Shown: positions 13,429-41,679 of the stretch, in pieces | Layout of the letters: every line of letters starts with the position of its first letter | How positions within the stretch are numbered: position 1 is the first letter of the stretch | NCBI GenBank assembly: GCA_000002445.1 | Contig: CH464491.1 | Location: 4,192,001 to 4,256,000 of the forward strand | Origin: Trypanosoma brucei | Taxonomy: Eukaryota | Direction of reading: 5' to 3' | Length of the DNA stretch: 64,000 bases | Made by a program: the position numbers and the translations under genes | The notes under the pieces: model-generated | Databases searched by the model: none | Told to the model about the DNA's origin: nothing | Seen by the model: only the letters and a program-made list of their open reading frames with translations

Positions 13429-13853
13429 CGACGAAACGTCACTCGACAGTCTGAAGCAGCCGCGGGGAGATGTGAACCGTAGAAACGGTAGTATATGATG
13501 CCTGCAAATCTACCTACGACCGCCCTGCCTGTTTGGTAGGTTCAGAGTCGGGAAGTGCTTGAATATTATGGGACCTCTTCCCTGTAGTGGTGACTCTGGT
13601 CGTATGAAAAATTATTGGATGAAAGAGTTTCAGAAAGGCAGCAGAGCAGCGGTTAATGCACAAGGAAACGTGTTGTGAGATATTAGGGAGAGCAGTAGCT
13701 TTCACAACCAGGCTGAGGCACGAAATGAAGCAGGGCGGTCTGCCCTATTCGCGTCCGTGTGTGAAGAGACATAGCCCACGAGGAAAGGTATTTGGTACCG
13801 ATACCATACTAAAATCGGTCCCTTCACATCTCACAGCTCTTCGAATAATGATT

Positions 13854-16007
13854 TCAGTCCGTTGCACGGCCCGACTTCCTTTTAGCCATACGGTACAAAT
13901 CCTGAGTAGTGGTGGGCAAAATATCATCCTCACTCCAGACTCCACCACCTAACTGTCGGACCACAAAAAGGACGACAAGCAGCCCAACCATTAGAATCAT
14001 CAGTGCAGTGACGGTGTCTGATGATGTACGCGTTCCTATCACGAATCCGTATATTCCACCCTCCGTCACGACGATAATGTCATTGATACCGTCCCCATTG
14101 AAATCCTGCACGATTACGGGAGCCACCGCTGGTTCCTCCAGCTCCACTACTCGCATAACACGCCCCGTCCTGGAACTCAGTATGGTCAGCTTCCGCTCGC
14201 CTACAGCAACAATGTACGGGTCCACCCGAAGATACCGTCCAGGCCCCCCTACGTGACCAACGGTGTCCTCATTAACTTGGTAAAAATTGTACGAAGCAAG
14301 ATGTGGGAAAGGGAACGTACGTTGCTTGTGCTCTGTCTCAGAGGAGGCTGCTTCCCCTACATCTGCCTCACGTTCACTGCGAAGCCTCCAGAAGGATGAC
14401 TCGGTTTGTGAACGCCAAACAACTCGACGTCGCGATGGATCTACGCATGTGACCAACCCTGAATCGGTCATAAAGACTGCAAGCCGTTCAACTTGAAACA
14501 AACCTCTCCCTCTCAACGTGTGTAGTTGCACCACAAGTGGAGTAACGCTCTTTGTAGTATGCGAGAGGGTGTTGTGGCTCCCAACAAGCTCGAGGGCGCT
14601 CAGGACCTCTGGAGTGCCCTCTCCGCGCGTGTCGCCATCAATGAAGCGGTGAATTAGTTCCAAACGGCCAAAAATCCCCTCGGTGTTGCAGATTGACGTC
14701 TGGAACAGTGAGTGATCGGCCGCAGGTGCACCTGTTGAAATGACACCGAGACAGTCGAGGGTAACGTCCACATCAAAGTGCGAATGCTTCTCCATCCGCC
14801 GACCTATGAGGGTGCTGACAGCGTCGATCTCGAAGTCGTCGTTGATATCATGATAGTAAACACCAGCAGACTTGAGCGGCGCCACGCGCGTAATCAAGTT
14901 TCCGGTGTATAGATGTACCACTTCTATTCCATGTTCTCCATGAAAAGCCAATACGTTGGCGGACTTGCGCTCCTTTTCCCCATGAGAACTCCCTTTTTTT
15001 TGAGGTTTACTCACAAGGCCGAGTCTCTCCGCCAGTTCGCCGTAGTCTTCACTGTTCATTCGAACAAAGCGATCCTTGTATTTCACTACAACTGTGTTTC
15101 CAGCTTGTGCCTTAGTTTTCTTTCTGTTTTTCGTGTGGAAAAACACGTGCGGACGGAGGCACTCATCCCAGGGATGAGAATAACGGTGGGGAAGAAGTGT
15201 CGAAACGGCCTCACGGTAAAATGTCCACGGTTTTTCGTACAATCTAAAAGATTCAGTGGCCTGGGAACTCACCACCACGGAGGCACCGGACGGTGAGCTG
15301 CCTCCCACCCCAACGGCATCCTCCGGGTCCAGCACTTCTCGAACTGAACTCTCCGCGTCGGAAGTGTAACGCCACCTCAGCTTGCCATCCGCACCATTAA
15401 ACGCTGCGAACAGCATCAATTTTGTGTGATTCGGTCCCGGGACTTGGGTGGCAATCACGACGGTTCCCTCGTCTCCTTCGTAAATGCGTTCACTGAGAAC
15501 ACTGACAGACGTATGGAAAGACTCCGACAGCACATTATGGATTGGTACACTCCATACTTCGGAAAAATCGTGGGGCGACAAACGGTACAAAAGAAAGTCA
15601 CTCGTAACCACAAAAATCGCATAATCCTCACCCACGGCGAGTCTTCCGGCTCCGATTGCTGTAATTCGCGAAAAGAACGACCTCTGATACATAGAGACGG
15701 GAGTTGCATACGTTTCAGCTGCCCCACTCGTTGAGTGGGTCTTGAACATTTCAAGAGACCCGTACGAAGTGGTTGCGATGAGGACTGGTCGACCATCACC
15801 CATAGGGTCAAGGACAACGGGTTTTGGAATCATGTACCGCTGCGACTCCAGGTCGGTAATTGGTATCTCAAAGCCCTTCCATACGGCCAGTCCATCTTCT
15901 TGATGCCACCCAAATATGCAAAAGATAATCGCGACACCCACAATGAAAACATCACGAAGTCGCATAGTGACCGACTGTAAAAACAGCCACAGCGCACTGC
16001 CAGACAA
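13854..16007 (-). CDS. FG-GAP/VCBS-repeat type I membrane protein (717 aa), function unknown
   Basis: Hydrophobic N-terminal signal/anchor (FIVGVAIIFCIFGW). FG-GAP-like motif VIVQDFNGDGINDIIVVTEGG near the C-terminus, followed by a hydrophobic transmembrane stretch (LMILMVGLLVVLFVV) and a short basic tail. Confidence 0.6.
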   Translation of the reverse strand: MSGSALWLFLQSVTMRLRDVFIVGVAIIFCIFGWHQEDGLAVWKGFEIPITDLESQRYMIPKPVVLDPMGDGRPVLIATTSYGSLEMFKTHSTSGAAETYATPVSMYQRSFFSRITAIGAGRLAVGEDYAIFVVTSDFLLYRLSPHDFSEVWSVPIHNVLSESFHTSVSVLSERIYEGDEGTVVIATQVPGPNHTKLMLFAAFNGADGKLRWRYTSDAESSVREVLDPEDAVGVGGSSPSGASVVVSSQATESFRLYEKPWTFYREAVSTLLPHRYSHPWDECLRPHVFFHTKNRKKTKAQAGNTVVVKYKDRFVRMNSEDYGELAERLGLVSKPQKKGSSHGEKERKSANVLAFHGEHGIEVVHLYTGNLITRVAPLKSAGVYYHDINDDFEIDAVSTLIGRRMEKHSHFDVDVTLDCLGVISTGAPAADHSLFQTSICNTEGIFGRLELIHRFIDGDTRGEGTPEVLSALELVGSHNTLSHTTKSVTPLVVQLHTLRGRGLFQVERLAVFMTDSGLVTCVDPSRRRVVWRSQTESSFWRLRSEREADVGEAASSETEHKQRTFPFPHLASYNFYQVNEDTVGHVGGPGRYLRVDPYIVAVGERKLTILSSRTGRVMRVVELEEPAVAPVIVQDFNGDGINDIIVVTEGGIYGFVIGTRTSSDTVTALMILMVGLLVVLFVVRQLGGGVWSEDDILPTTTQDLYRMAKRKSGRATD

Positions 16008-16196: not shown

Positions 16197-16363
16197 CCTC
16201 CGATACGTATCTCGCCACATCGCCAGCGGAAAGTATCATGGTGCCTTAGCGATACCACCGCTGTACTGATGCTGCTTGGGTCACCAAAAATCTCACACCA
16301 CACTTTGGCCACCATTGTGGAAACTACCGCACAGAAAGGGGCTGGTTGGTGGGTGTTGAGCCA
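16197..16363. repeat. Direct repeat copy 1 (~167 bp)
   Basis: Nearly identical to 16590-16756 (about 4 mismatches), beginning cctccgatacgtatctcgccacatcgccagcggaaagtatcatggtgcc... The short ORFs 16049-16393 and 16439-16708 share an identical 40-aa translation only because they cross this repeat. Confidence 0.9.
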
Positions 16364-16589
16364 AATGAAAATGTCAGGAAACCGATAGAGCATTTCTCAT
16401 TCATGCACACAATGAGACACAAATTAAACAAATCTTGGTCAGCTTTTGAACCACATTGCACTTACAATGGTACAAGTACTGGGCCTTCGAACTGACCTTA
16501 AGGAACCATCAGGGTCACCGCCGGGAACTTTGTAGGCGAAAGGAACACGAAATAGAGGGGAAAAAACGCAAGGAAGACGAAAACAGCAA

Positions 16590-16756
16590 CCTCCGATACG
16601 TATCTCGCCACATCGCCAGCGGAAAGTATCATGGTGCCTTAGCGATACCACCGCTGTACTGATGCTGCTTGGGTCGCCAAAAATCTCACACCACACTTTG
16701 GCCACCATTGTGCAAGCTACCGCACAGAAAGGGGCTGGTTGGTGGGTGTTGAGGCA
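16590..16756. repeat. Direct repeat copy 2 (~167 bp), 393 bp downstream of copy 1
   Basis: Same sequence as copy 1 with a few substitutions (tcaccaaaaa vs tcgccaaaaa; gtggaaactacc vs gtgcaagctacc). Confidence 0.9.
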
Positions 16757-27605: not shown

Positions 27606-28286
27606 CTACAAATGGGTATTGTAACTAGGATCTGTCGTTGCACACGAGGCTATAATATCAGCGTCCGTTTTCTCTCTAACATTGCGAAGAAACGAATACG
27701 ACGGGCAGCCCGTCGAATTGACAGGTGAAAAGAAACATACACGCATCTGCTTGACCACCAGTAACGTGCGGCGGAACGACACACCACCGCTGACTGAATC
27801 GGTTATATCGCTGACAATACTTTGAATGATGTATTTGAAGGAGTGAACATACGCATCCCTTAACTGAAGCACAACGTCAGTTACCCATGGGACGAAATAC
27901 GATCCATCCCTTGAGCGCGCATATAGTCGGATTTGCCACCTTATAGCGCTACAGAGCATTGCTCGGTCAGCAGCGGCTAATATTGCAAACGCACCATCCG
28001 TGTCATTTTTAAGATTATATACAATGGAAGAATAAAGCATTCTGGTCTCGGTATGATTAAGATTTCTCCCCGAGCCATATAAACCGCTCAATCCTTCCTG
28101 TGAGTAGTTCTCAGGGAGAACCAAAGATAAAGGTTCAGGCGTCAAAAGTTTCTCCCAACCTAAACCGAAAAGAATTACAACAATACACATGCGATACAGG
28201 CGCCGCATCGTAAATTGCTTAAATAACGAAAAGATAGTAGAAAAAACAATAGTACAAGCGACAAGACAAAAAACAAACCAAGCCAC
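27606..28286 (-). CDS. Hypothetical secreted/membrane protein (up to 226 aa; likely start at internal MRRLYRMCIVVILFGLGW)
   Basis: PTU-strand ORF with a signal-peptide-like hydrophobic N-terminus. No domain recognised. It directly follows the PhLP3 gene. Confidence 0.35.
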   Translation of the reverse strand: MAWFVFCLVACTIVFSTIFSLFKQFTMRRLYRMCIVVILFGLGWEKLLTPEPLSLVLPENYSQEGLSGLYGSGRNLNHTETRMLYSSIVYNLKNDTDGAFAILAAADRAMLCSAIRWQIRLYARSRDGSYFVPWVTDVVLQLRDAYVHSFKYIIQSIVSDITDSVSGGVSFRRTLLVVKQMRVCFFSPVNSTGCPSYSFLRNVREKTDADIIASCATTDPSYNTHL

Positions 28287-29039
28287 TTTTGGATGTCAAA
28301 ATACCCCACCACCCACTGTTACCAACTCCCAACGAACGTGGCCACCTTCAAACACCACATACGGCACAAGCCTCATCACTTACGAGACAACAACAAGCGA
28401 TAAAAGACGTCCATCAACAGTGACGCATCAAACAATTATTATACGCCGTCACTGCAACAAAAACATAGAGACGAAAAATCCGGTAATTCCCACTTCCGAG
28501 AAGCATCCATGGTGGAGAGACAACCGTTGATATAATAAAAACAAGACCAATGCCAAAAAGGCAGTGACAAAAACTACAACTCACAACAGCATGCGCGTCT
28601 CCTCACCACCATCACCTTTCGCACAAAGAGTAAAAAGATAAAGGAGCATAGGACCACAATGCTAAACAACACACACACTAAAAAAAAAACGACAAGCAGT
28701 ATACAACAAACATTCCAAATCGCCAATCATTACACAATCACCTAAATGAAAACAATAAAACAAACAGTAAAAAGGGAGTAAACCACTACACGAAGAGACC
28801 AGTAACCCTTCCAACTGCAGCAACATACGCAGCCAACGGAAAAAATGAGCAAATAAAAAACATCGACACAAACGAACATTCAAATACATCACACCAACAA
28901 AAACAAAAGATAGGTGAAAAGCGCCAGCACAAGCCAACTACAAATACACCCTGACACGGAAAACCACAAAAAAATTAATAAAAAACTAGATACGATACGA
29001 AACAAACTCTACAACAATGCACCTCGCCCCTATACAAAA

Positions 29040-30890
29040 GATAAGCGACACATGCTTTCTTTTTTTTTGGGGGGGGGGAGGGGCCTCGAAATGCACATAA
29101 ACATTTCCTCCTCTATGAGGACTAAATGATGAGTCCCTCCCCCCCCCCTCCAATCAAATGAAAAAGGAAGTAGTGCATACACAAAGTGATGAATCGTAGA
29201 TACAAAGGAAAAAAAAAGCAAACAAATCACTGTGGACAGATGTATTTGTAAGGCCAGAAACATCCTCCAGTGCAAATATTGTTTCCTTCGGTACGCTGAG
29301 TAAAAGAGTAGATGGGTAGCGAAATGCCAGAAGATTATCATACAACTATTGTTCAGGGAGGGTGTGTCACTGTAGATGGTACCGTGAAAGTTACCGGAAA
29401 GAAATAAAGGACGGATCCGTGTGTAAGACAAAAGTAGCCATATTTTACAAACTACATGTCATTCTTTGTAGCCCTTTAAAACAAGCTCCACTCGAATTCA
29501 AGGTGGGAACCGCCTGCCACACATGGAAGTTGACTGACTATGAAACTAGTCAGCAGAGGCATACGCATTCGTATTAATTCATTCCGCTTTTCCCCACTGC
29601 GCGGCGGACCGGAATGAAAACGAGGGCGGCATCATTGCTGCTGGAGAGTGGGAAAAGACTGCCCCATAATATTCCCGGCTCGAATCGTGAACATTACTAT
29701 GAAGGTTACCGTGAGGCAAAATCGCAGCACCCCGAGAAGGTACAACTCACCACGGTGGTGGAGGGAATCGTCCCTGTGCGGTTTTTATGCAATCATTTCC
29801 AGTAACTTTAGCCGCTTTCACGGAGAAGCACACCGGAGGGTGGAGCCGAGAATGTGGATGATACAGCCGTTAGAATCAACAGCGGAAGTCGGTAAAGGGT
29901 GGACCAAACCTAGTAACACCTCCTGAAGGATTCACGACACTTCCACCTCACTAATCAAAGGAAGAGAGGACTCGTGATCCAGCGGTACGTTGCGAGTGCA
30001 ATTTGCTTCACTCTCGATTCGACTCGAAAGTAAAGCATACGGCGGGGAAAACATTGGCAGGCTGAAAAGAAACGGGTAGGTGGGAAATAAAATATGGCTC
30101 CGAAGCCACTTGTGCACACAGACGCCCTTATTGCCACGGCGCCCTCATGATCATTCTTACACATTTGTATAGTTTTGAGGGAGTCCGTAAACACAGAAAA
30201 GGGAACGATGATTCCGGACGGCACGGATAGCAGGAAGTAAAAGGGAAAGAAGCAATGGGGCCACATCAGCAAATACGTGCTAAGGCACTCATAGCGACCG
30301 AAACCAAACCGGTTACAAACTTGCTTTAGGTGCCAAGTTGTATCCAAGCGTGTTGATAATTGAAAGGGATTTGCGCAGCAAAATGGAATAGGAAAAGGGA
30401 CTCTCACTGAGCAAACAATGATGCCAATAGTAAGAGCATGAGCGCAAATAAGTAACGGATTCGGAGAGTCGTGCAATACATGGCAACGCTGGCTCGTGTA
30501 ACGCCTCTCATTTCTTCTTCAACAGGGAGTGAGCAGAGATGGAATGAATCCAAGGAGGGGGAGCGCCATCATGAAAGTGCGTTACTGAAAGTTGTTCACG
30601 AGAGCTTTGCTAAATTTAACCAACCGGCTGGCCGATAGAGAGGGCGTCACTTCCCACAACATCGCTTGTGTGGGTTGCGTACGGCACCTGAAGATGGAGA
30701 GATACGGGATACTTCTTCCGATATAACTGAAACATCATGTGATTGCCGCATGCCATTTACTCCGGAGCAGAAGGTAAAGGGATGTGGGGTGGCACCATGG
30801 CCCAAGGTAGTGTTGGCCGAAAGCGTCTTAAGTGTAGCCAAGTATTTCTGAGGCAGGTGGGCCCCACCTGGCGTATTTGCAAACAGGGGA

Positions 30891-30927
<37 letters not shown>

Positions 30928-30960
30928 GGAGTGACGCCCCCCCCCCAAAAAAAAAAACAA
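29040..30960. repeat. Left arm of large inverted repeat (~1.92 kb)
   Basis: Reverse complement of about 34697-36612. Every spurious ORF in this arm has an identical or 1-aa-different twin on the opposite strand of the right arm (e.g. 29955-30476(-) equals 35173-35694(+), 173 aa identical; 29362-29577(+) equals 36072-36287(-)). Start plus end coordinates of the paired ORFs sum to a constant (65649 to 65652). Contains (TA)n at 30893-30924, a C-run plus A-run, and (CAAA)n at the inner edge. Confidence 0.92.
30893..30924. repeat. (TA)16 microsatellite inside left repeat arm
   Basis: atatatatatatatatatatatatatatatat read directly. The partner in the right arm (about 34735-34756) is shorter. Confidence 0.95.
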
Positions 30961-32157
30961 ACAAACAAACAAACATATAGAAGAGAGAGCCTTTGGAAGA
31001 AGGGAAAAAATTGCCGAGCATATCAGCAGTCAACCCCTAAAAACAAATTGGAAGCGCCATCACATCAATAGTGTAGTGGGGAGTTGAAAACAACAATCGA
31101 ATGCAATTGGGCAAGTGACAACTACGAACAAAAACTGCAAGTGGAAGACGGCTGCACTGCCCTAGACAACACTTATCAGGAAGCGCCCAACCATGTATGC
31201 GACATATGCGAATTTTGGGCATCATGTAGGGAATGTGACAAAAAGACCAATTTCTCCCGCACTTAACACACCTTTGGCCCCCACAAGTACTCCGCAATGG
31301 CTGAGGTTATCTCTACTGCGGAAATACAGGGACGTCGGGCCATGGGTGCAACAGATGCTTAAGGTAGGGTAAGTGGTGATGGGGGAGCGTTTGATTTTAT
31401 TTATTTTTAATAATTCGATACGTTCGTGCATATAGGGATTAAGAGGTGGAAGGAAAAGTGTGTGTGTGCGATTTTTTTTTTTTTGAGATGACGGAGCAAA
31501 AAATGTTTGTCCGTACATGTGTGCTAAGCAATATAAAAGGGTGGGGGTTAATATCAAGTGGCAGTGACAGTTGTTATCGACGTTTGATCAGCAGGAGGGT
31601 TCTTCCAGATTTTCCTACATTGTTGGAGGCAATATATTTTTTTGTGTTTTTGTGGTGGTTTATAGCAGATATGTGCTGTTATGCTTAGAGGAGAATATCG
31701 TGATCCAGGCCAGTACTGACGGAGAAAAAAAGCTCCATGATTTTTTCCTATCCGGTGGGCAGTGGCCTTCTGTCAGTCACTGCTGGCCGTTGTCATCTGC
31801 GGCAATTTGGCGTTTACCCTTTGCGGTTATTTTGTCAAAAAAAAATCAATTGAACTGAAACAGGCACCGCATAATCTTTAAAAAAACGTGTTCCTTGTGT
31901 GCTGCTTGCCTGCTATTCACGATGTAAGGAAACATAACGATACAGCTGAATATACTTAAATTTTCTATAAAACATACAAGTGCCCCCCCCTGACGAGATG
32001 CAATGAACACAGCGGTACACTTCACATACTTCTGCACCATATATATTGTTACAATATGCACATGTTACAACTTCCTTTTCAATGCTATACTTGTGGTGTC
32101 AATACATGCAGAAAGACATGCAATAAACTAAGATACGACAAGAAAGAAAATTAAGAT

Positions 32158-32826
32158 ATGACTCAGCAGCAACCCCCTACATATCAGCAAGTTGTCGGAA
32201 TAGTGGAAAGTTTTGGAGTAGAAGCAAATGCGACAATAGAACAATACCTCAGAAAATCACAAAGCAGCGGGTGGCAGACACTAATTCTCAACACCTGTAC
32301 GACACTAACAAATATTAGGCGGATACATGAAATTACTACACTACAACAATTACAGTTGATAAATTGCCAAGGTATTACTGATATCAGTGTCCTGAGGGAT
32401 TTCAGGAATTTGATAGCACTTGATATTTCCTATTGCAATAATATTCGTGTTTTTAATGTTCTGAAAGGTTGCATGAAGTTGAAGTTAGTTAATGTTTCTT
32501 GTTTGGGCGTTCAAGATGCGAGCTTTTTTGGTGGCATTACTTCACTTATGGCTGTGAAGCTTCGTTATTGTGGTCATTTAGGTGATACGTCTGCACTTAG
32601 GGGAATGAGTCAACTGAGGGCGTTCGACGTCACAGATTGTTATAATACTAGTGTGGATACAGATTTTTTAAAAACTCTTCCGTCATTGGATACAATCCAT
32701 ATGTCTGAGAATTGTGTTGATGATGCGATTCTTTGTGAAGTTAGAGGAAGAGGGGTGAACGTAAAAGAGGTGGAGTTGCCTTTGAAGGGGATGGGGCCCA
32801 AGCAACTTGGTGAAAAAATAGCTTAA
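32158..32826 (+). CDS. Leucine-rich repeat protein fragment, ESAG8/LRRP-like (222 aa; probably truncated or a pseudogene)
   Basis: About six ~24-aa repeats of the form L..L.L..C..ITD.S.L..(F)..L (LQLINCQGITDISVLRDFRNLIALDISYCNNI..., LKLVNVSCLGVQDASFFGGITSL, LRAFDVTDCYNTSVDTDFLKTLPSL). This is the cysteine-containing LRR pattern of the T. brucei ESAG8/LRRP1 family. It is the only sizeable ORF on the plus strand not lying antisense to a gene. Codons are strongly A/T-ending (aat, att, gat, tta, gga), unlike the flanking GC3-rich housekeeping genes. 222 aa is far shorter than family members (>600 aa). Confidence 0.6.
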   Translation: MTQQQPPTYQQVVGIVESFGVEANATIEQYLRKSQSSGWQTLILNTCTTLTNIRRIHEITTLQQLQLINCQGITDISVLRDFRNLIALDISYCNNIRVFNVLKGCMKLKLVNVSCLGVQDASFFGGITSLMAVKLRYCGHLGDTSALRGMSQLRAFDVTDCYNTSVDTDFLKTLPSLDTIHMSENCVDDAILCEVRGRGVNVKEVELPLKGMGPKQLGEKIA

Positions 32827-34696
32827 TGAGTTGGCTGTGGTTGAATGTCTTCTGTTGTGAGAATTTTTGCGGCGCTGCGCCACTTCGCGGAGTTTCACTA
32901 GTGTTTGTCTGGGTACCGAAGAAAGGGTTCGGGGAAGTTGAAAACTCTCACTATTTCGATAAGGGTGGTCATTGGAGGTACGGGTAGTGGACGCAGGGAA
33001 TATGGAACTAGACAAGGGCGTTGAAGTTTAACTCTTCTCTTGGGTTTGCTGTTGAGGATATGCAGTTATTAAGTCCCTCGAGAGAGCTTGAAGAATCGGC
33101 GTTAAATTTGTGGGGAGGTATCGGAAGATGCCATGGGTAATCTTCACTCGTCACAGAATTGATGTTGGGTTTAAACTAAAGACAATGCCGCGGATGGATG
33201 TTTTGCTACACTCGGCAATGTAAATGAAAATGACGATCGCAAAATTGGAACCCCTGTTGGTTGTGGAGTGTGGCAGTGCTGTGGTCGTCGGAACCTTGGG
33301 TGGTGCGGTGGTGCTCTTGGAGCTGTCGTTGGGTGGGGGTAAACAACCGCAAGTGTAAGGAGCGTCATTAGTGAGCTCCTTAGTTTTCGCAGGCTATTTT
33401 TGAACAGGGCTCCAACGACGACCGGTAGTTACGAAACCCTAGAAGCACGCGTGGACACGCTGAGATTGGGACTTCTCGTTTGTAAACCATTCACTTGCAG
33501 GTGCTCCAGGTTATGCGTGAATCACATGGCTGTTGGTGTCCTTCCACGCGAGTTGTAACGCATGATACTCCACTAGTGCGGTTTAAATGTTAAAAATTTC
33601 GGCGCACAAATTGCGGCGATGCGCCTCGAGGTTTGGGCATTGCAGGTCGTATAAACCACCATGAAGGGTAAGCGAGCCCTTACGGCGACAACATCCTTCA
33701 ACTTCCGAGGCACAACAACAGTTCTGCAGCTGCAGCCGCTTAAGTTTGTAATTAAGTCGCGATGGTGCGCGTCCCATCATTAGTAAATGCGAACGCGCTG
33801 AAGTGCTGGGGATCATCTTGGATATGTGCCGCCAAACGAGGATCCTACGATATTCCGAGGCGCCGGAGATGCGTTTCTACTAACGCGATCTACGGTATGA
33901 TGAGGCGAAGAAGTGTTGGGACGCAAAGGTCAGTGGAAGAGAGGTAAGGTTAACTAATCACCTGGGGTTAGTATTCCAGCGTGTGTGATCCAAATCTTGC
34001 CTGCAAAACATTTTAACCGATCCGCATGTGCCCATAAGTGTGTATACGGGTGCTGTTTTTGGTGGTGGGATTGGTGGCTATTTCCCACCTTCTTCTAAGA
34101 CTCTCTATATCCTTCTGCCAATCATTTAGTAGCGTTGGCGGTGAGTTAAACTAAGAAATAAACGGGCGAACACCCAGGTAGCCGGAGGTATGAGACGCGG
34201 ATAATTGTGGGGGTCTCTGCTTTCTGTGCTCATCGCAAGTTCGACAGCTTACGGAGCTGCAGTGGGGTGGCACTGGGCGAATTATTCCCTCCGCTCTTCT
34301 TCCCATGTAACGAAAAGGCCGGTTAAACCAAGGGATGGATGGATGTCGGCAGCGGGCGTATATCTGTTGCTTGTGGGTCCGAGTTGGCGGCAGCCTTTCA
34401 CGTATTTCCCACTGTTCGGTCTGGTCAGCGTGTTCTTCGGTGCTCGCATCGGGCGTTGCGAAGAAAAGATTGACGTGTTTTATTATAAGGTAGGGGTTCG
34501 GAGCCTTGGCGGATACACGCGTACGTATATGGGCCAAAAGAAGGGCCAGCGAGAAATACCCCCTTCCCGAGGAGAGCACCAGCTCGGCAAAGTTTCGATG
34601 CTCTCCCATTTCCGGAGTTATAGAGGCCGGGAAGGCCCAAGTGATGAAGCCGTAAAAGTATTTGGTGGAATAAGTGCTGTACACTTCATCGCTGAA

Positions 34697-36612
34697 TGTT
34701 TTGTTTTTTTTTTGGGGGGGGGCGTCACTCCGCCATATATATATATATATATATATCTTCCCCTGTTTGCAAATACGCCAGGTGGGGCCCACCTGCCTCA
34801 GAAATACTTGGCTACACTTAAGACGCTTTCGGCCAACACTACCTTGGGCCATGGTGCCACCCCACATCCCTTTACCTTCTGCTCCGGAGTAAATGGCATG
34901 CGGCAATCACATGATGTTTCAGTTATATCGGAAGAAGTATCCCGTATCTCTCCATCTTCAGGTGCCGTACGCAACCCACACAAGCGATGTTGTGGGAAGT
35001 GACGCCCTCTCTATCGGCCAGCCGGTTGGTTAAATTTAGCAAAGCTCTCGTGAACAACTTTCAGTAACGCACTTTCATGATGGCGCTCCCCCTCCTTGGA
35101 TTCATTCCATCTCTGCTCACTCCCTGTTGAAGAAGAAATGAGAGGCGTTACACGAGCCAGCGTTGCCATGTATTGCACGACTCTCCGAATCCGTTACTTA
35201 TTTGCGCTCATGCTCTTACTATTGGCATCATTGTTTGCTCAGTGAGAGTCCCTTTTCCTATTCCATTTTGCTGCGCAAATCCCTTTCAATTATCAACACG
35301 CTTGGATACAACTTGGCACCTAAAGCAAGTTTGTAACCGGTTTGGTTTCGGTCGCTATGAGTGCCTTAGCACGTATTTGCTGATGTGGCCCCATTGCTTC
35401 TTTCCCTTTTACTTCCTGCTATCCGTGCCGTCCGGAATCATCGTTCCCTTTTCTGTGTTTACGGACTCCCTCAAAACTATACAAATGTGTAAGAATGATC
35501 ATGAGGGCGCCGTGGCAATAAGGGCGTCTGTGTGCACAAGTGGCTTCGGAGCCATATTTTATTTCCCACCTACCCGTTTCTTTTCAGCCTGCCAATGTTT
35601 TCCCCGCCGTATGCTTTACTTTCGAGTCGAATCGAGAGTGAAGCAAATTGCACTCGCAACGTACCGCTGGATCACGAGTCCTCTCTTCCTTTGATTAGTG
35701 AGGTGGAAGTGTCGTGAATCCTTCAGGAGGTGTTACTAAGTTTGGTCCACCCTTTACCGACTTCCGCTGTTGATTCTAACGGCTGTATCATCCACATTCT
35801 CGGCTCCACCCTCCGGTGTGCTTCTCCGTGAAAGCGGCTAAAGTTACTGGAAATGATTGCATAAAAACCGCACAGGGACGATTCCCTCCACCACCGTGGT
35901 GAGTTGTACCTTCTCGGGGTGCTGCGATTTTGCCTCACGGTAACCTTCATAGTAATGTTCACGATTCGAGCCGGGAATATTATGGGGCAGTCTTTTCCCA
36001 CTCTCCAGCAGCAATGATGCCGCCCTCGTTTTCATTCCGGTCCGCCGCGCAGTGGGGAAAAGCGGAATGAATTAATACGAATGCGTATGCCTCTGCTGAC
36101 TAGTTTCATAGTCAGTCAACTTCCATGTGTGGCAGGCGGTTCCCACCTTGAATTCGAGTGGAGCTTGTTTTAAAGGGCTACAAAGAATGACATGTAGTTT
36201 GTAAAATATGGCTACTTTTGTCTTACACACGGATCCGTCCTTTATTTCTTTCCGGTAACTTTCACGGTACCATCTACAGTGACACACCCTCCCTGAACAA
36301 AAGTTGTATGATAATCTTCTGGCATTTCGCTACCCATCTACTCTTTTACTCGGCGTACCGAAGGAAACAATATTTGCACTGGAGGATGTTTCTGGCCTTA
36401 CAAATACATCTGTCCACAGTGATTTGTTTGCTTTTTTTTTCCTTTGTATCTACGATTCATCACTTTGTGTATGCACTACTTCCTTTTTCATTTGATTGGA
36501 GGGGGGGGGGGGGAGGGACTCATCATTTAGTCCTCATAGAGGAGGAAATGTTTATGTGCATTTCGAGGCCCCTCCCCCCCCCAAAAAAAAGAAAGCATGT
36601 GTCGCTTTTCTC
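34697..36612. repeat. Right arm of large inverted repeat (~1.92 kb)
   Basis: See left arm. Differences seen are a few SNPs (GWTKPSNTS vs GWTKLSNTS; LLLSVPK vs LLLGVPK), 1-bp differences in G/C homopolymer runs, and a different (TA)n length. Confidence 0.92.
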
Positions 36613-37907: not shown

Positions 37908-38306
37908 TCATGATGTTTGAGCGGGCCCATTCGATCCATTTTCAGGAGCTGCCGCCGTTGCACCAGCTGGCAGAAGCCCCAGTGGGGACGCGTGATCTGC
38001 AGGACCCCACTTCCGCAATGTCTCCAATTTTTCTTTTATTTCGCTCATCTGCTCTGCCAACCTGGAACGGGTTAACTTCACTTTATCCAACTTCGCCTTT
38101 ACGTCCTTTTCCGCCTTTTCAATTTCTGCTCTTTGCTTTGCAAGTTCCTTCTGTTTGTATTGCAGCTCCTTTGAGTTCTTCTCACACAAACCGTCTTCCG
38201 TCCTCATTTCCCCGAGGAGTTCGGTGAAGAGGTCCATGTTTTGCTTCCGGAACTCCGCCTCACGCCGTGAAATGACGGCTTGCATCTCAACAAGCTTGCG
38301 ATCCAT
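37908..38306 (-). CDS. Small coiled-coil protein (132 aa), hypothetical
   Basis: PTU-strand ORF. E/K/R/L-rich heptad-like sequence (KELAKQRAEIEKAEKDVKAKLDKVKLTRSRLAEQMSEIKEKLETLRK) with non-random composition. No homology assignable from memory. Confidence 0.4.
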   Translation of the reverse strand: MDRKLVEMQAVISRREAEFRKQNMDLFTELLGEMRTEDGLCEKNSKELQYKQKELAKQRAEIEKAEKDVKAKLDKVKLTRSRLAEQMSEIKEKLETLRKWGPADHASPLGLLPAGATAAAPENGSNGPAQTS

Positions 38307-39561: not shown

Positions 39562-41679
39562 TTACCTTTTCGCCATGAACTCTTTGCTCTTGCGGTAGAG
39601 GTGCACAAAACTCTGGTTAACTGAATTGGTGAGATAACTCGCATTGTGCTCTGTCTGACATAAGCTAATTAACTCCTGCGATTTCTTGTTGTTGTGCATA
39701 ATTGCTTTTAATTCCGGAGGCACTGATTTTTCGAAAGCAGCCACATCCACCAGAAAGGCCTCGGTCAAGCCGTAACTCGTCACGGTGTAGGTGTAGTGCG
39801 TCTTGAGAGAGGCGTATTCGTACGCCCCCAAGATTCGACTAATAAACAACTTGTCAGCAAGGGACCTCCGCCTTGAGATGCTTTCATAAGGACTCACAAC
39901 ATCTCCCCCCGGAGACGCGTCACCGGATACGGTTATCCTCACCGTAGCATATTCCCCCTCCTCGGTAGAGATGGTCGTCTCACAAACACCGCTATGTATG
40001 ATAACAAACCGCTGAAACTTTTGTCCCTGAATCACAAGCTTCTCATCGTTGAGGAAAATGGTTGGGACGCTCATCTCCCACATACGCATCATTAGCTGGC
40101 GCGTAAGACAAAATTGGATGAAAGGGTCCTTGGAAAGGGAACGAGGGACGGCACAGGGTTTCTCCACTTCCATCGCACGATGGGATTTGGCTGCTCCGCG
40201 GCAGTATAGGAAAGCTGCCGGTTCGCTCATTCCAACATCCATAAGAGCTTCACGGCTTATCCTCCAGATGTCACAATAGTTCTGGCTTATTATGGTACAC
40301 TTTTTTCGCTCGTTAACGCTGCAAGCGCACTCAAATATCCCCACACAACTGCCGCGCGGGACAAGGCGCTGGTTGCCGCTTGCCTCCAGGAGAACAGCAA
40401 CGCCATCTTGTATGAAGTAAGCGGAGGGGTCCAGCTCCGACTTGGAGAAGAGGTGATCATTATTGTGGAGGACGATGGGCTCCGCCTTGCTAATAATATT
40501 TTCCAGGGCGGCGTTGCTGAATTGCACAAAATAAGGGAAACTACGAAGAAATTCCACACGCAGAGGGAAAAACCTCTGCAAATTGGCGCGCCTCCTCACA
40601 TCTGTTGCTTCCCGCTGTTTGCTCTTGATTTCCTGGCTCAACTGTTGGGCGACCTCCTCGAACCCCTCGGGTGGCACGCTCCATACGCCAACATCGGTTT
40701 CACAAATAATCGACGCACTTCTCGGCTCCTTACACACGAGAGCAAACTCGCCCACATAACATGGCGGCGAAAGCGTAAAACAGGCTTTGCTATTCTCCTT
40801 GATGCGCCTCTTCCCCTTCTCTCGATCGTTCATGATCACCGAAATGGTTCCAGCTGTGATCATGTACATGCAACGGTCCACATCTCCTTCATGCATCAAA
40901 TACGAGCCCTCCTTCAGATACAGCGGCCGGGCCTTGTGTCCCAGTTGCTCTAACAATTTATTTGGCCATCCATCAAAAAACGTACCCTGCATTCGGTGAA
41001 TAATGGAGGGGGTTGGGAAAGGAATTTTGTCCAAATTGTCCCGCGTTAACTCCGCGGCTAGCATCCGTTTCCTCTGCACGGCCAACCGTCGTTTGATAAT
41101 CGGCAGTAGGCGGAACTTAATCTTCTCCATTGCTTCGTAGTCGCGCCGTTCTTTGATAAGAACAGTGAGGAAAACATGTGATGTAATAATTGTGTACCAC
41201 CTCGCCGCCCGGTGTTGGCGAACCTCCTCAATTAACACGTTCTTCAGATTTAAATGCCGCCTAAAAATGTACTCCCTTCTTGGGCGCTCATGTTCGTAGG
41301 CCGCGCGAAGCTCATTCTGTGCTCTAGCCTTAAGCTCGGCGCCACGCATTCTAACGTTTTCAAGGTATTCAACCTCGTTTCTTGCTTTTACATTACTGAG
41401 CCGTCGCAGGAAGTTCTCCTCGTTCAGCGGTTCGCACCTGCGCAGCCTAGAAACAATAGCTCTCTTTTCCCAGTCCGTGAAGACGCTGTTCATATTTATG
41501 TTCTCCACTATTTGGGCATACCGTCGCGAGCCTTGTCGCTGGGGCGGCAACGGGGGAACCGTGAAGGGTTGGACAGGCTCAGTGCCCTGAAGAATGTCAT
41601 CGCACGACGGCACGTCCGTTCGTGTGAGAAGCCAGTCATGATCACCCATAGCGTAGTCTGGGTATTCATAACTACCCAT
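39562..41679 (-). CDS. Cyclic nucleotide-binding domain protein (705 aa) with no kinase domain
   Basis: At least two cNMP-binding (CAP-family) beta-barrel signatures: YLKEGSYLMHEGDVDRCMYMITAGTISV...YVGEFALVCKEPRSASIICETD, and a second with FIQDGVAVLLEASGNQRL...GSCVGIFE. Neither the kinase GxGxxG...K motif nor the HRDLKPEN motif is present. Confidence 0.75.
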   Translation of the reverse strand: MGSYEYPDYAMGDHDWLLTRTDVPSCDDILQGTEPVQPFTVPPLPPQRQGSRRYAQIVENINMNSVFTDWEKRAIVSRLRRCEPLNEENFLRRLSNVKARNEVEYLENVRMRGAELKARAQNELRAAYEHERPRREYIFRRHLNLKNVLIEEVRQHRAARWYTIITSHVFLTVLIKERRDYEAMEKIKFRLLPIIKRRLAVQRKRMLAAELTRDNLDKIPFPTPSIIHRMQGTFFDGWPNKLLEQLGHKARPLYLKEGSYLMHEGDVDRCMYMITAGTISVIMNDREKGKRRIKENSKACFTLSPPCYVGEFALVCKEPRSASIICETDVGVWSVPPEGFEEVAQQLSQEIKSKQREATDVRRRANLQRFFPLRVEFLRSFPYFVQFSNAALENIISKAEPIVLHNNDHLFSKSELDPSAYFIQDGVAVLLEASGNQRLVPRGSCVGIFECACSVNERKKCTIISQNYCDIWRISREALMDVGMSEPAAFLYCRGAAKSHRAMEVEKPCAVPRSLSKDPFIQFCLTRQLMMRMWEMSVPTIFLNDEKLVIQGQKFQRFVIIHSGVCETTISTEEGEYATVRITVSGDASPGGDVVSPYESISRRRSLADKLFISRILGAYEYASLKTHYTYTVTSYGLTEAFLVDVAAFEKSVPPELKAIMHNNKKSQELISLCQTEHNASYLTNSVNQSFVHLYRKSKEFMAKR

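What the first reader, a model, noticed from the sequence alone, without database searches (positions are those of the whole stretch)
32158..32826. Opposite-strand, AT-rich ESAG8/LRRP-like LRR fragment embedded in a housekeeping PTU
The ORF has the cysteine-containing LRR periodicity of the T. brucei ESAG8/LRRP1 family but is only 222 aa, versus more than 600 aa for intact members. It lacks the RING/N-terminal region. Its A/T-ending codon bias differs sharply from its neighbours and it points against the polycistron. Read-through of the PTU would transcribe it as antisense RNA. Likely a relic or pseudogene, possibly with a regulatory or boundary role, rather than a protein-coding gene.
Basis: partly seen in the sequence, partly recalled or inferred. 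Interest (0 to 1): 0.5.

Follow-up and report, generated by a model that had tools for sequence, protein, structure and literature searches.

The report
LRR gene inside a flippable inverted repeat
The odd opposite-strand LRR ORF is a real, Trypanosoma brucei-specific mini ESAG8-like gene (Tb11.01.7860) sitting in the spacer of a large, already published siRNA-producing inverted repeat, and its "wrong" orientation is probably a recombinational flip of that spacer, not a fixed feature.

Summary
Window 32158-32826 (+) is a 222-aa ORF with seven 22-24-residue Cys-containing LRRs. Its GC3 is 0.345 against 0.46-0.59 in neighbours, and it opposes a minus-strand PTU. It is the annotated T. brucei TREU927 gene Tb11.01.7860, inferred to be Tb927.11.16180.

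The ORF lies in the 3.74-kb spacer of a near-perfect inverted repeat, with arms at 29039-30961 and 34700-36611. This almost certainly is Tb927_11_IR7 of Tschudi et al. 2012, a source of AGO1-bound, DCL2-dependent siRNAs.

Both arms share 20 lineage-specific substitutions, so they evolve in concert. In the T. b. gambiense DAL972 assembly the spacer is inverted, which puts the LRR gene co-directional with the PTU. A strand-composition test suggests that orientation is ancestral.

The module has no counterpart in T. cruzi synteny, nor, judging by gene numbering, in T. congolense.

The ORF is intact in four genomes but shows no purifying selection (12 nonsynonymous : 1 synonymous site). It keeps ESAG8-like N- and C-caps, lacks the RING, and has no relic LRRs around it.

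"Relic with antisense transcription" is partly supported. "Static boundary element" is not. The locus is known. The flip and concerted evolution are new details.

The parts
32158..32826 (+). 222-aa ORF Tb11.01.7860 (XP_829675.1), inferred to be Tb927.11.16180. Layout: N-terminal ~24 residues probably disordered, ESAG8-like pre-LRR helix, seven Cys-containing LRR units (residues 39-202) ending in the ESAG8/LRRP-type C-terminal cap 'VDDAILCEVRGRGVNV', then a 20-residue tail.
29039..30961 (.). Left arm of the long inverted repeat (1923 nt). It carries a G10...C10 local hairpin at its outer end, and a (TA)n-GGCGGAGTGACG-C10-A11 tract at its inner end.
30962..34699 (.). 3738-nt unique spacer (the 'loop') carrying the LRR ORF. 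It is inverted relative to the flanks in the T. b. gambiense DAL972 assembly. No Pfam or Rfam match outside the LRR ORF.
34700..36611 (.). Right arm of the inverted repeat (1912 nt). A 1779-nt core is 100% complementary to the left arm. Over the full arm, BLAST counts 4 mismatches and 5 gap openings over 1926 aligned nt, and MAFFT counts 7 substitutions.
31307..31317 (+). Empty target site (TTATCTCTACT) where a 5.2-kb ingi retrotransposon sits in DAL972 and in T. b. equiperdum GCA_003543875.1. The ingi has the 5' end CCCTGGCGATGCC..., a poly(A) tail and this sequence as target-site duplication. It is on the same strand as the LRR gene, about 840 nt upstream of its ATG. It is absent here and in T. 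equiperdum OVI.
34343..35002 (+). Annotated 219-aa ORF Tb11.01.7870 (inferred Tb927.11.16190). It straddles the spacer/right-arm junction and reads through the (TA)n tract. It has no family match and is probably not a gene.
27606..28208 (-). Left-flank PTU gene, a 200-aa conserved hypothetical (EAN80562, inferred Tb927.11.16170). It has a T. congolense orthologue, TCIL3000_11_16110. It is the first gene downstream of the module in PTU direction.
37908..38306 (-). Right-flank PTU gene CAP17 (Tb11.01.7880 = Tb927.11.16200). It is the last gene upstream of the module in PTU direction. CARP1 (Tb927.11.16210) follows at 39562-41679 (-).

Best explanation
The ORF is a lineage-specific (Trypanozoon-only) mini ESAG8/LRRP-type LRR gene. 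It is carried in the 3.7-kb spacer of a 7.6-kb palindromic module (1.9-kb arms) inserted between CAP17 and a 200-aa gene in a minus-strand Pol II polycistron on T. brucei chromosome 11.

Shown:
- The inverted-repeat architecture.
- The LRR/ESAG8 affinity, including both caps.
- Absence of the module from T. cruzi synteny.
- Concerted evolution of the two arms.
- Opposite spacer orientation in the DAL972 assembly, with breakpoints inside the arms.
- Lack of purifying selection on the ORF.

Taken from the literature: one chromosome-11 inverted repeat of this size (IR7) yields AGO1-bound siRNAs that fall to 2% without nuclear Dicer DCL2.

Inferred mechanism:
1. Polycistronic read-through copies both arms into one RNA. 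The RNA folds into a ~1.9-kb double-stranded stem that DCL2 dices.
2. Homologous recombination and gene conversion between the arms keep them near-identical and occasionally flip the spacer.
3. The LRR gene is therefore either sense to the polycistron (DAL972-type, probably ancestral, expressible as an ordinary trans-spliced mRNA) or antisense to it (TREU927-type, this window, effectively off).
4. The ORF currently evolves without protein-level constraint. It is best viewed as a dispensable or fast-evolving passenger of the repeat, not a conserved housekeeping protein or a boundary element.
For: Architecture: arms 29039-30961 and 34700-36611 have a 1779-nt core at 100% complementarity.

Identity of the locus:
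- The ORF is Tb11.01.7860 on TREU927 chromosome 11.
- Neighbours are MCM7 = Tb927.11.16140, CAP17 = Tb927.11.16200 and CARP1 = Tb927.11.16210.
- Tschudi 2012 Table 3 lists a single chromosome-11 inverted repeat, IR7, at 4.219-4.231 Mb: 1,814 bp, 3 mismatches, 9,296 reads, dcl2-/- at 2% of wild type.
- The DAL972 homologue lies at 4.24 Mb.

Flip:
- L002/L004 (DAL972) read left flank - arm - reverse-complemented spacer - arm - right flank, with the LRR gene on the same strand as the 200-aa gene and MCM7.
- GenBank protein order swaps accordingly. DAL972 CBH18694-99 runs 200aa, arm ORF, LRR, ingi..., CAP17. TREU927 EAN80562-65 runs 200aa, LRR, arm ORF, CAP17.
- GCA_003543875.1 shares the DAL972 ingi insertion and an identical ORF but has the TREU927 orientation, so the flip is recent.

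Concerted evolution: at 20 sites both TREU927 arms differ from all four DAL/IVM arms, against 4-9 differences between the arms within one genome.

Ancestral orientation: a 4-mer strand classifier scored all 13 training intergenic segments correctly in leave-one-out. It calls left arm(-), right arm(+) and the spacer downstream of the ORF(+) sense-like. So the DAL972-type arrangement has only one 1.9-kb arm the wrong way, while TREU927 has 5.6 kb the wrong way.

Lineage specificity:
- No relative above 40% identity exists outside the T. brucei clade among 1.84 billion representatives.
- T. cruzi runs CARP1 - TBCA - MCM7 - NDK with no LRR.
- T. congolense IDs leave one slot between the 200-aa and CARP1 orthologues.

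Selection:
- There are 10 nonsynonymous : 1 synonymous differences (927 vs DAL/IVM) and 12:1 over all variable sites.
- Omega = 0.25 is rejected at P = 0.003 and P = 0.0009.
- ORF divergence is 1.64% against 0.92% in flanking non-coding DNA.
Against: 1. The IR7 identity rests on chromosome, arm size, uniqueness in a systematic survey and approximate coordinate. The window's exact chromosomal coordinate could not be retrieved.
2. The flip is seen in one of four assemblies, and DAL972 is a Sanger whole-genome-shotgun assembly. A 1.9-kb near-perfect repeat exceeds read length, so a mis-oriented spacer cannot be excluded. The OVI contig orientation is also only as good as its path through the arm.
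3. Tschudi et al. do not say how IR7 reads divide between arms and spacer, so antisense or dsRNA over the ORF itself is not shown.
4. An ORF that diverged to ~25-35% identity from every paralogue yet stayed open (P~7e-8 by chance) must have been under selection for most of its history. The nonsynonymous excess (P = 0.025 against the non-coding rate) could be diversifying selection on a functional protein and not decay.
5. Stranded poly(A)+ RNA-seq in Lister 427 evidently detects sense mRNA of Tb927.11.16180, so the gene is not always silent.
Confidence: 0.6

Rival explanations
1. A functional, fast-evolving small LRR protein whose expression is phase-variable. The inverted repeat acts as a genetic switch. 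In the co-directional orientation the gene is processed from the polycistron into mRNA and translated into a 7-repeat LRR binding module. In the flipped orientation it is silent, and its antisense transcript plus the hairpin feed RNAi.
For: - The ORF is intact in four genomes, with N-cap, seven regular repeats and C-cap. The AF2 model shows β-strands at 23-residue spacing plus cap helices.
- It stayed open despite deep divergence from all paralogues.
- Nonsynonymous substitutions exceed the local non-coding rate (10 observed against 4.8 expected, P = 0.025), as expected for diversifying selection on LRR surfaces.
- Both orientations exist in assemblies.
- Tb927.11.16180 was the single most decreased transcript (log2FC -8.62, stranded poly(A)+ RNA-seq) in an acoziborole-resistant Lister 427 line. 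That is an on/off magnitude comparable only to a switched VSG in the same table.
- Several pyrimidine tract + AG combinations lie 45-490 nt upstream of the ATG.
Against: - There is no protein-level evidence.
- GC3 of 0.345 is far below neighbours, which in T. brucei generally goes with low mRNA and protein output (established knowledge).
- Substitution counts are small, and P = 0.025 is marginal.
- The RNA-seq drop could be a deletion, loss of heterozygosity or a mapping effect. The authors did not comment on it.
- The equation of Tb927.11.16180 with this ORF is inferred from consecutive numbering.
- The AF2 model is low-confidence (pLDDT 62).
Confidence: 0.2
2. One reading: a fixed, decaying pseudogene fragment of a long LRRP/ESAG8 gene. 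It is permanently antisense to the polycistron and acts, if at all, as an antisense-RNA or boundary element.
For: - It is short and lacks the RING.
- It has AT-rich codon usage.
- There is no purifying selection.
- Three of four assemblies, including this one, have the antisense orientation.
Against: - No stop or frameshift occurs in any of four genomes.
- Both ends of the LRR domain (pre-LRR segment and C-cap) are retained, so it is not a simple truncation.
- No LRR or RING remnants appear in any frame within 28-38 kb.
- Orientation differs in DAL972.
- The PTU continues on the same strand on both sides, with no tRNA or Rfam feature at the site.
- Poly(A)+ sense transcript is reported.
Confidence: 0.12
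3. The DAL972 inversion is an assembly artefact and the gene is always on the opposite strand. It forms its own tiny transcription unit (a back-to-back convergent/divergent strand switch) initiated inside the repeat, for example near the G-runs at the arm ends. The siRNAs arise from convergent transcription and not from a fold-back hairpin.
For: - The arm length exceeds Sanger read length.
- G9-G10 runs flank the arms. From my own knowledge, G-runs have been noted near T. brucei Pol II start regions.
- Sense mRNA exists in Lister 427.
Against: - The two DAL972 arms were assembled as distinct copies (9 substitutions apart). A reference-guided scaffold would not invert a segment without read evidence.
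- The annotation order agrees with the inversion.
- The strand-composition test favours a history of co-directional transcription.
- Tschudi's list of convergent units on chromosome 11 stops at 3.83 Mb and files this locus as an inverted repeat.
- Concerted evolution proves that arm-to-arm recombination occurs.
Confidence: 0.08

Closest known systems
Tb927_11_IR7, one of seven long inverted repeats of T. brucei that produce AGO1-bound siRNAs (Tschudi et al. 2012, BMC Genomics 13:427, PMC3447711)
   Same: - Same species and chromosome.
- Arm length matches (1,814 bp reported; here a 1,779-nt perfect core, ~1.9 kb with indels).
- Arms are near-identical.
- It is the only such repeat found on chromosome 11 in a systematic survey.
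- The coordinate (~4.22 Mb) fits the gene numbering and the DAL972 position.
This is almost certainly the same locus.
   Different: The paper does not mention the LRR gene in the spacer, the orientation difference between strains, the ingi polymorphism or concerted evolution. It speculated that 'selective pressure' maintains arm identity. Here the shared substitutions point to gene conversion instead.
ESAG8 (630 aa; P26337 / B3GVS1) and the trypanosome LRRP family
   Same: - 23-residue Cys-containing LRR units.
- Significant similarity (E = 4.8e-21).
- A pre-LRR segment alignable to ESAG8 residues 93-117.
- The C-terminal cap V(D/P)DxxLxxx(R/K)xxGV. Among the top 150 hits this cap occurs only in ESAG8, a T. 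vivax LRRP and one unnamed sequence.
   Different: - Only 26-33% identity.
- 7 repeats instead of roughly 20.
- No RING finger or basic N-terminal region.
- Chromosome-internal, not in a telomeric Pol I expression site.
- Has a 20-residue C-terminal tail.
Hairpin-RNA (hpRNA) endo-siRNA loci of Drosophila and plants (long inverted repeats transcribed into fold-back dsRNA)
   Same: A single transcript containing both arms folds into long dsRNA that a Dicer processes into Argonaute-loaded siRNAs.
   Different: Here the repeat is embedded in a constitutive polycistron and has no promoter of its own. The spacer is long (3.7 kb) and carries an ORF. No trans target of the siRNAs is known.
Polymorphic inversions between large inverted repeats (chloroplast genome isomers; the human Xq28 FLNA-EMD segment flanked by 11-kb inverted repeats)
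   Same: - Near-identical inverted arms are kept homogeneous by gene conversion.
- The spacer is found in both orientations, with breakpoints inside the arms.
- No dedicated recombinase is needed.
   Different: In a trypanosome polycistron the orientation decides whether the enclosed gene can be expressed at all, because genes lack individual promoters. The evidence here is one assembly, not population genotyping.
Bacterial invertible-DNA phase-variation switches (fim, hin)
   Same: Conceptually the same: inversion of a segment bounded by inverted repeats toggles expression.
   Different: Those use short repeats, a site-specific recombinase and a promoter inside the invertible element. Here the arms are 1.9 kb, no recombinase ORF is present, and it is the gene that flips relative to a distant promoter.

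Membership tests
ESAG8 / trypanosome LRRP family | Tandem ~23-residue leucine-rich repeats with a conserved Cys (LxxLxLxxC...) | tested here: met
   Seven units of 22-24 residues, with Cys at position 8-10 in all seven. Pfam LRR_4 and LRR_8 score E~1e-5, just below the cut-off.
ESAG8 / trypanosome LRRP family | Significant sequence similarity to bona fide members | tested here: met
   ESAG8 representative P0123 scores E = 4.8e-21 and T. vivax LRRP P0111 scores E = 1.8e-21. Pairwise BLASTP gives E = 4e-11 and 1e-10. Many generic bacterial and plant LRR proteins score higher because they have more repeats.
ESAG8 / trypanosome LRRP family | C-terminal cap motif V(D/P)DxxLxxx(R/K)xxGV at the end of the LRR domain | tested here: met
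   VDDAILCEVRGRGVNV aligns to ESAG8 [16 protein letters not shown] and T. vivax VDDKVLALLRSEGVRL. Only 3 of the top 150 hits carry the motif near their C-terminus.
ESAG8 / trypanosome LRRP family | N-terminal RING zinc finger (ESAG8 proper) | tested here: not met
   There is no Cys before residue 47. The alignment begins at ESAG8 residue 93. No RING-like sequence appears in any frame upstream.
ESAG8 / trypanosome LRRP family | Full length of 600 aa or more with ~18-20 repeats | tested here: not met
   222 aa and 7 repeats, against 607-731 aa for ESAG8 and the T. vivax LRRP.
ESAG8 / trypanosome LRRP family | Location in a telomeric bloodstream expression site (ESAG8 proper) | tested here: not met
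   It lies between CAP17 and a conserved 200-aa gene in a core housekeeping PTU that also holds MCM7, NDK, TBCA and CARP1.
Long inverted-repeat (hairpin) siRNA locus, Tschudi IR class | Two near-identical inverted arms of hundreds to thousands of bp | tested here: met
   A 1779-nt core is 100% complementary. The full arms are ~1.92 kb, with 4 BLAST mismatches or 7 MAFFT substitutions plus homopolymer and (TA)n indels.
Long inverted-repeat (hairpin) siRNA locus, Tschudi IR class | AGO1-bound 22-25-nt siRNAs dependent on Dicer | not testable with these tools
   Published for IR7: 9,296 reads, dcl2-/- at 2% of wild type. Identity of IR7 with this window is inferred from chromosome, arm length, uniqueness and approximate coordinate.
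Long inverted-repeat (hairpin) siRNA locus, Tschudi IR class | Both arms contained in one primary transcript | not testable with these tools
   Inferred. The module lies inside a continuous minus-strand PTU with genes on both sides. No nascent-RNA data are available.
Inverted-repeat-mediated invertible segment (flip-flop isomers) | Spacer found in both orientations with breakpoints inside the arms | tested here: inconclusive
   DAL972 is inverted. TREU927, GCA_003543875.1 and the OVI contig are not. Only one assembly is inverted, and read-level support cannot be checked.
Inverted-repeat-mediated invertible segment (flip-flop isomers) | Concerted evolution (gene conversion) of the arms | tested here: met
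   20 substitutions are shared by both arms of a lineage, against 4-9 differences between arms within a genome.
Inverted-repeat-mediated invertible segment (flip-flop isomers) | Dedicated site-specific recombinase encoded nearby (bacterial-type switches only) | tested here: not met
   No Pfam match for any spacer or arm ORF other than the LRR.
Pseudogene / gene relic | Disabling mutations (stops, frameshifts) or flanking remnants of the parent gene | tested here: not met
   The ORF is 669 nt and intact in four genomes. tblastn finds LRR similarity only inside the ORF frame.
Pseudogene / gene relic | Neutral substitution pattern (dN/dS ~1) | tested here: met
   10 nonsynonymous: 1 synonymous, ratio ~2.8, compatible with omega = 1 (P = 0.27). 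Omega = 0.25 is rejected (P = 0.003). The counts are small, and diversifying selection gives the same pattern.
Foldback-type transposon | Target-site duplication flanking the long terminal inverted repeats; multiple genomic copies | tested here: not met
   There is no direct repeat at the outer arm boundaries. No other copy exists in the window or in outgroup loci. Genome-wide copy number is not testable here.

The most novel reading that the evidence does not exclude
The inverted repeat is a recombinational on/off switch for a gene inside a promoter-less polycistron. Arm-to-arm crossover flips the ESAG8-like LRR gene between the sense orientation (mRNA made) and the antisense orientation (silent, feeding nuclear RNAi). 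The ~400-fold loss of Tb927.11.16180 mRNA in an acoziborole-resistant Lister 427 line would be one such flip, or an associated loss of heterozygosity, fixed in a clone. This would be inversion-based phase variation of a core-genome gene in a trypanosome, outside the VSG system.
Probability: 0.2. Interest if true: 0.75.

Novelty: already known. Interest (0 to 1): 0.4.

Why it matters
The gene is annotated, and the repeat is almost certainly the published siRNA locus IR7. So the core of the finding is not new.

What this analysis adds bears on a puzzle the original authors raised: why trypanosome long inverted repeats stay ~100% identical. Here both arms carry the same 20 lineage-specific substitutions. 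Identity is therefore kept by ongoing gene conversion and not by conservation of the sequence.

The same recombination appears to have flipped the spacer in one subspecies. In an organism whose genes have no individual promoters, flipping a gene within a polycistron is a simple all-or-none expression switch.

If the flip is confirmed by long reads, it would be a new source of clonal expression heterogeneity. It would also be a caveat for differential-expression studies that map to the TREU927 reference.

Tried and rejected
- **tRNA and Rfam scans.** The tRNA scan found nothing. The Rfam gathering scan of the whole window found only the TB11Cs5 snoRNA cluster at 16.2-16.8 kb. A permissive Rfam scan of 28.5-37.5 kb gave only sub-threshold miRNA-like hits on the G10/C10 local hairpin of the arm ends. 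I treat these as chance.
- **Relics of a longer LRRP.** tblastn of ESAG8, T. vivax LRRP and P0039 against 28-38 kb found nothing outside the ORF.
- **Other coding potential in arms and spacer.** No Pfam hits.
- **Similarity of arms or spacer elsewhere.** None to the rest of the window, to ingi, or to T. vivax, T. theileri or T. cruzi loci.
- **Foldback transposon idea.** No target-site duplication.
- **Simple GC/AT skew for the ancestral orientation.** The two skews gave conflicting signals for the arms. I replaced them with a 4-mer strand classifier that has leave-one-out calibration.
- **T. congolense synteny.** The orthologue's contig is not on record, so only gene numbering could be used.
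- **TREU927 coordinates.** The TREU927 copy is not on record in the gene-position index, so the exact chromosomal coordinate could not be read.
- **T. vivax and T. theileri.** Synteny breaks right after CARP1, so these are uninformative.
- **Paralogous sequence variants in the arms.** I tried to use them to trace the crossover between DAL972 and GCA_003543875.1. No shared variants exist, so this was uninformative.
- **Literature searches.** Searches for the old gene ID, for neighbouring IDs, and for reported inversions in T. brucei long-read assemblies found nothing on this locus beyond the papers cited.
- **RNA-seq supplement.** The supplementary table of PMC8648117 is truncated in the library, so base expression of Tb927.11.16180 could not be read.
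- **Structure search.** The single-sequence AF2 model was too low in confidence (pLDDT 62) to justify a fold search.
Full report
**1. The observation**

Window 32158-32826 (+) is an ATG-to-TAA ORF of 222 aa. An in-frame stop lies two codons upstream.

- It divides into seven units of 22-24 residues of the form LxxLxLxxC, with the Cys at unit position 8-10 in all seven.
- Pfam LRR_4 and LRR_8 match at E~1e-5, just under the gathering score.
- An exhaustive HMMER search of 1.84 billion representatives gave 6193 hits at E<=1e-3.
- These include the ESAG8 cluster representative (P26337, 630 aa, E = 4.8e-21, query 41-202 against ESAG8 466-629) and a T. vivax LRRP (E = 1.8e-21).
- GC3 is 0.345, against 0.458-0.588 in 13 neighbouring genes.
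- All other credible genes in the 64 kb are on the minus strand: p38/Tc-38, NDK, MCM7, TBCA, a phosducin-like protein, a 200-aa protein, CAP17, CARP1 and others.

**2. Identity of the ORF**

The ORF is an exact match to XP_829675.1 / EAN80563.1, 'hypothetical protein Tb11.01.7860' of T. brucei brucei TREU927. UniProt labels it LRRP. There are 222-aa copies in T. b. gambiense DAL972, T. b. equiperdum (GCA_003543875.1) and T. equiperdum OVI.

The current gene ID can be inferred from the neighbours:

- MCM7 is Tb927.11.16140.
- CAP17 is Tb11.01.7880 = Tb927.11.16200.
- CARP1 is Tb927.11.16210.
- Five consecutive GenBank proteins, EAN80560-64 (TBCA, phosducin-like, 200 aa, LRR, Tb11.01.7870), fill the five IDs between MCM7 and CAP17.

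So the ORF is Tb927.11.16180. This is inferred from numbering and was not looked up.

**3.

The ORF lies in the spacer of a large inverted repeat.

- The arms are 29039-30961 and 34700-36611.
- A 1779-nt core is 100% complementary.
- The full ~1.92-kb arms differ by 4 BLAST mismatches (7 MAFFT substitutions) plus indels in homopolymer and (TA)n tracts.
- The spacer is 3738 nt.

Tschudi et al. (2012, PMC3447711) surveyed the TREU927 genome for such repeats and found seven. Exactly one is on chromosome 11: Tb927_11_IR7 at 4,219,000-4,231,000, with repeat length 1,814 bp and 3 mismatches. It gave 9,296 AGO1-associated small-RNA reads. These fell to 52% in dcl1-/- cells and to 2% in dcl2-/- cells.

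The chromosome, arm size and uniqueness all agree with this window. So does the position: the DAL972 homologue lies at 4.24 Mb, and about 1,620 genes at roughly 2.6 kb each also comes to about 4.2 Mb. I take the two to be the same locus with about 90% confidence. The exact coordinate could not be retrieved.

**4. Comparison with other Trypanozoon assemblies**

*An ingi insertion.* DAL972 and GCA_003543875.1 carry a 5.2-kb ingi retrotransposon at window 31307-31317. It encodes endonuclease, RT and RNase H, has the canonical 5' end CCCTGGCGATGCC and a poly(A) tail, and is flanked by the 11-bp duplication TTATCTCTACT. TREU927 and OVI have the empty site.

*A flipped spacer.* In the DAL972 chromosome the order is left flank - arm - reverse-complemented spacer - arm - right flank. 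There the LRR gene is on the same strand as the 200-aa gene, MCM7 and the rest of the PTU. The deposited protein order is swapped accordingly: CBH18694-99 against EAN80562-65. GCA_003543875.1 shares the ingi and an identical ORF with DAL972 but has the TREU927 orientation. If the flip is real, it therefore post-dates the ingi insertion.

*Concerted evolution.* The arms evolve in concert. At 20 sites both TREU927 arms carry one base and all four DAL/IVM arms carry another. Arms within one genome differ at only 4-9 sites. Since all genomes share the repeat, these substitutions must have been copied from arm to arm. This proves that arm-to-arm recombination occurs, and that recombination is also the mechanism that would invert the spacer.

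*Caveat.* The inverted state is seen in one Sanger whole-genome-shotgun assembly, and the arms are longer than a read. I put about 65-70% on the polymorphism being real.

**5. Which orientation is older?**

Plain GC and AT skews conflicted for the arms. I therefore trained a 4-mer sense/antisense classifier on 13 intergenic segments of this PTU. All 13 were called correctly in leave-one-out, at +32 to +226 per kb.

| Segment | Score per kb (+ strand as sense) |
|---|---|
| Left arm | -90 |
| Right arm | +93 |
| Spacer downstream of the ORF | +71 |
| Spacer upstream of the ORF | -17 (ambiguous) |

In the DAL972-type arrangement, everything from the spacer through the left arm to the 200-aa gene reads 'sense', and only one 1.9-kb arm is the wrong way round. 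In TREU927, 5.6 kb is the wrong way round. The parsimonious history has three steps:

1. An LRR gene sat co-directionally in the PTU.
2. An inverted duplication of its downstream 1.9 kb arose upstream of it.
3. A later flip produced the TREU927 isomer.

This is inference.

**6. Lineage specificity**

- No protein above 40% identity exists outside the T. brucei clade.
- T. cruzi synteny runs CARP1 - TBCA - (492 aa) - MCM7 - NDK, with no LRR detectable by tblastn.
- The T. congolense orthologues of the 200-aa gene and CARP1 are TCIL3000_11_16110 and _16130. That leaves one ID between them, presumably CAP17.
- T. vivax and T. theileri break synteny after CARP1.

**7. The protein**

Pairwise alignment shows more than 'some LRRs'.

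- Residues 20-47 align with the ESAG8 pre-LRR segment 93-117 ([28 protein letters not shown]).
- The end of the domain aligns with the ESAG8 C-terminus. IHMSENCVDDAILCEVRGRGVNV aligns to [23 protein letters not shown], and it also aligns with the T. vivax LRRP C-terminus.
- Among the top 150 hits, only ESAG8, the T. vivax LRRP and one unnamed sequence carry this cap near their C-terminus.

The ORF therefore looks like an ESAG8/LRRP LRR domain with both caps but only 7 of about 20 repeats and no RING. It is an internally shortened, self-contained mini-domain and not a simple truncation.

No LRR or RING remnants occur in any frame within 28-38 kb. A single-sequence AlphaFold model is only moderately confident (pLDDT 62, pTM 0.62). 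It does show seven β-strands at 23-residue spacing, with an N-cap helix (27-37) and a C-cap helix (189-197). The closest solved sequences are designed consensus LRRs and internalins.

**8. Selection**

- TREU927 differs from DAL972/IVM at 11 sites, 10 of them nonsynonymous.
- Across all four genomes there are 13 variable sites, 12 of them nonsynonymous.
- This is compatible with neutrality (P = 0.27). It rejects omega = 0.25 (P = 0.003, and P = 0.0009 for all sites).
- ORF divergence is 1.64%, above the 0.92% of flanking and spacer non-coding DNA. The nonsynonymous count is 10 against 4.8 expected (P = 0.025).

So there is no purifying selection now. Either constraint is relaxed or the surface is diversifying.

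Against simple decay, a 222-codon frame of this composition stays open by chance with P~7e-8. Yet the sequence has diverged to 25-37% identity from every known relative, so it must have been maintained as a coding sequence for most of its history.

**9. Expression clue from the literature**

In stranded poly(A)+ RNA-seq of Lister 427, Tb927.11.16180 ('hypothetical protein') was the single most decreased transcript in an acoziborole-resistant line (log2FC -8.62, padj 8e-13). It ranked ahead of a switched VSG, and the authors did not comment on it.

- This shows that sense mRNA exists in at least one strain.
- The change has the magnitude of a genetic on/off event.
- A spacer flip, loss of heterozygosity or a deletion would each explain it, and I cannot distinguish them.
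- Several pyrimidine tract + AG combinations lie 45-490 nt upstream of the ATG, so trans-splicing is at least possible.

**10. Most likely mechanism**

*Shown:*
- The palindromic module.
- The ESAG8-like mini-LRR.
- Arm homogenisation.
- Alternative orientation in one assembly.
- No purifying selection.

*From the literature:* DCL2-dependent siRNAs from IR7.

*Inferred:*
- PTU read-through transcribes right arm, spacer and left arm into one RNA. Its arms pair into a ~1.9-kb stem that nuclear DCL2 dices.
- Recombination between the arms keeps them identical and flips the spacer.
- In TREU927 the LRR gene is antisense to the only known source of transcription and is effectively off. In the DAL972 orientation it can be processed like any PTU gene.

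I found no support for a boundary function. The PTU continues on both sides, and there is no tRNA, snRNA or other Pol III feature at the site.

**11. Verdict**

- The locus (gene and inverted repeat) is already in the databases and the literature.
- The new points are the link between the two, the arm-to-arm gene conversion, the probable flip with its consequence for expression, the polymorphic ingi, and the neutral or diversifying substitution pattern.
- Interest is moderate. It would be high if long reads confirm a flip-flop switch.

Noticed in passing
window 16210-16751 (- strand): Tandemly duplicated H/ACA snoRNA cluster TB11Cs5. There are two copies each of H1 (16288-16358, 16681-16751) and H2 (16210-16277, 16603-16670) and one copy of H3 (16433-16498). 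It sits between the 717-aa ORF and p38/Tc-38 inside the same PTU.
   Followed up: no
window 31307-31317; L002 3890-9146; L003 3887-9146: A presence/absence polymorphism of a full-length ingi with an 11-bp target-site duplication. It is shared by T. b. gambiense DAL972 and T. b. equiperdum GCA_003543875.1 and absent from TREU927 and T. equiperdum OVI. The two 'T. equiperdum' genomes thus carry different haplotypes at this locus. The ORF of GCA_003543875.1 is identical to DAL972, while OVI is closer to TREU927.
   Followed up: partly
window 34343-35002 (+): The annotated gene Tb11.01.7870 (219 aa; 155 aa in DAL972) straddles the spacer/arm junction and translates the (TA)n microsatellite as YIYIYIY. 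It has no family match and looks like an annotation artefact.
   Followed up: partly
window 29056-29162 and 36501-36590: Each arm's outer end holds a local hairpin formed by T9G10AGGGG ... CCCTC10. It gives sub-threshold miRNA-family hits. The inner ends carry (TA)n-GGCGGAGTGACG-C10-A11. All these tracts vary in length between arms and between genomes.
   Followed up: no
window 28209-29038: The composition is extremely skewed: GC skew -0.33 and AT skew +0.53 on the + strand, so the - strand is T- and G-rich. The stretch lies between the left arm and the 200-aa gene. It is presumably the pyrimidine-rich splice-acceptor region of that gene.
   Followed up: no
L010 (T. cruzi) 12127-14273; L007-L009: T. 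cruzi goes from CARP1 straight to TBCA, with no detectable CAP17, 200-aa or phosducin-like gene. T. vivax and T. theileri lose synteny immediately after CARP1. The CARP1-TBCA interval therefore seems to be a hotspot of lineage-specific gene gain and rearrangement.
   Followed up: partly
PMC8648117 Table 2 (Tb927.11.16180): The gene inferred to be this ORF is the top down-regulated transcript (log2FC -8.62) in an acoziborole-resistant T. brucei line. The authors do not discuss it.
   Followed up: partly
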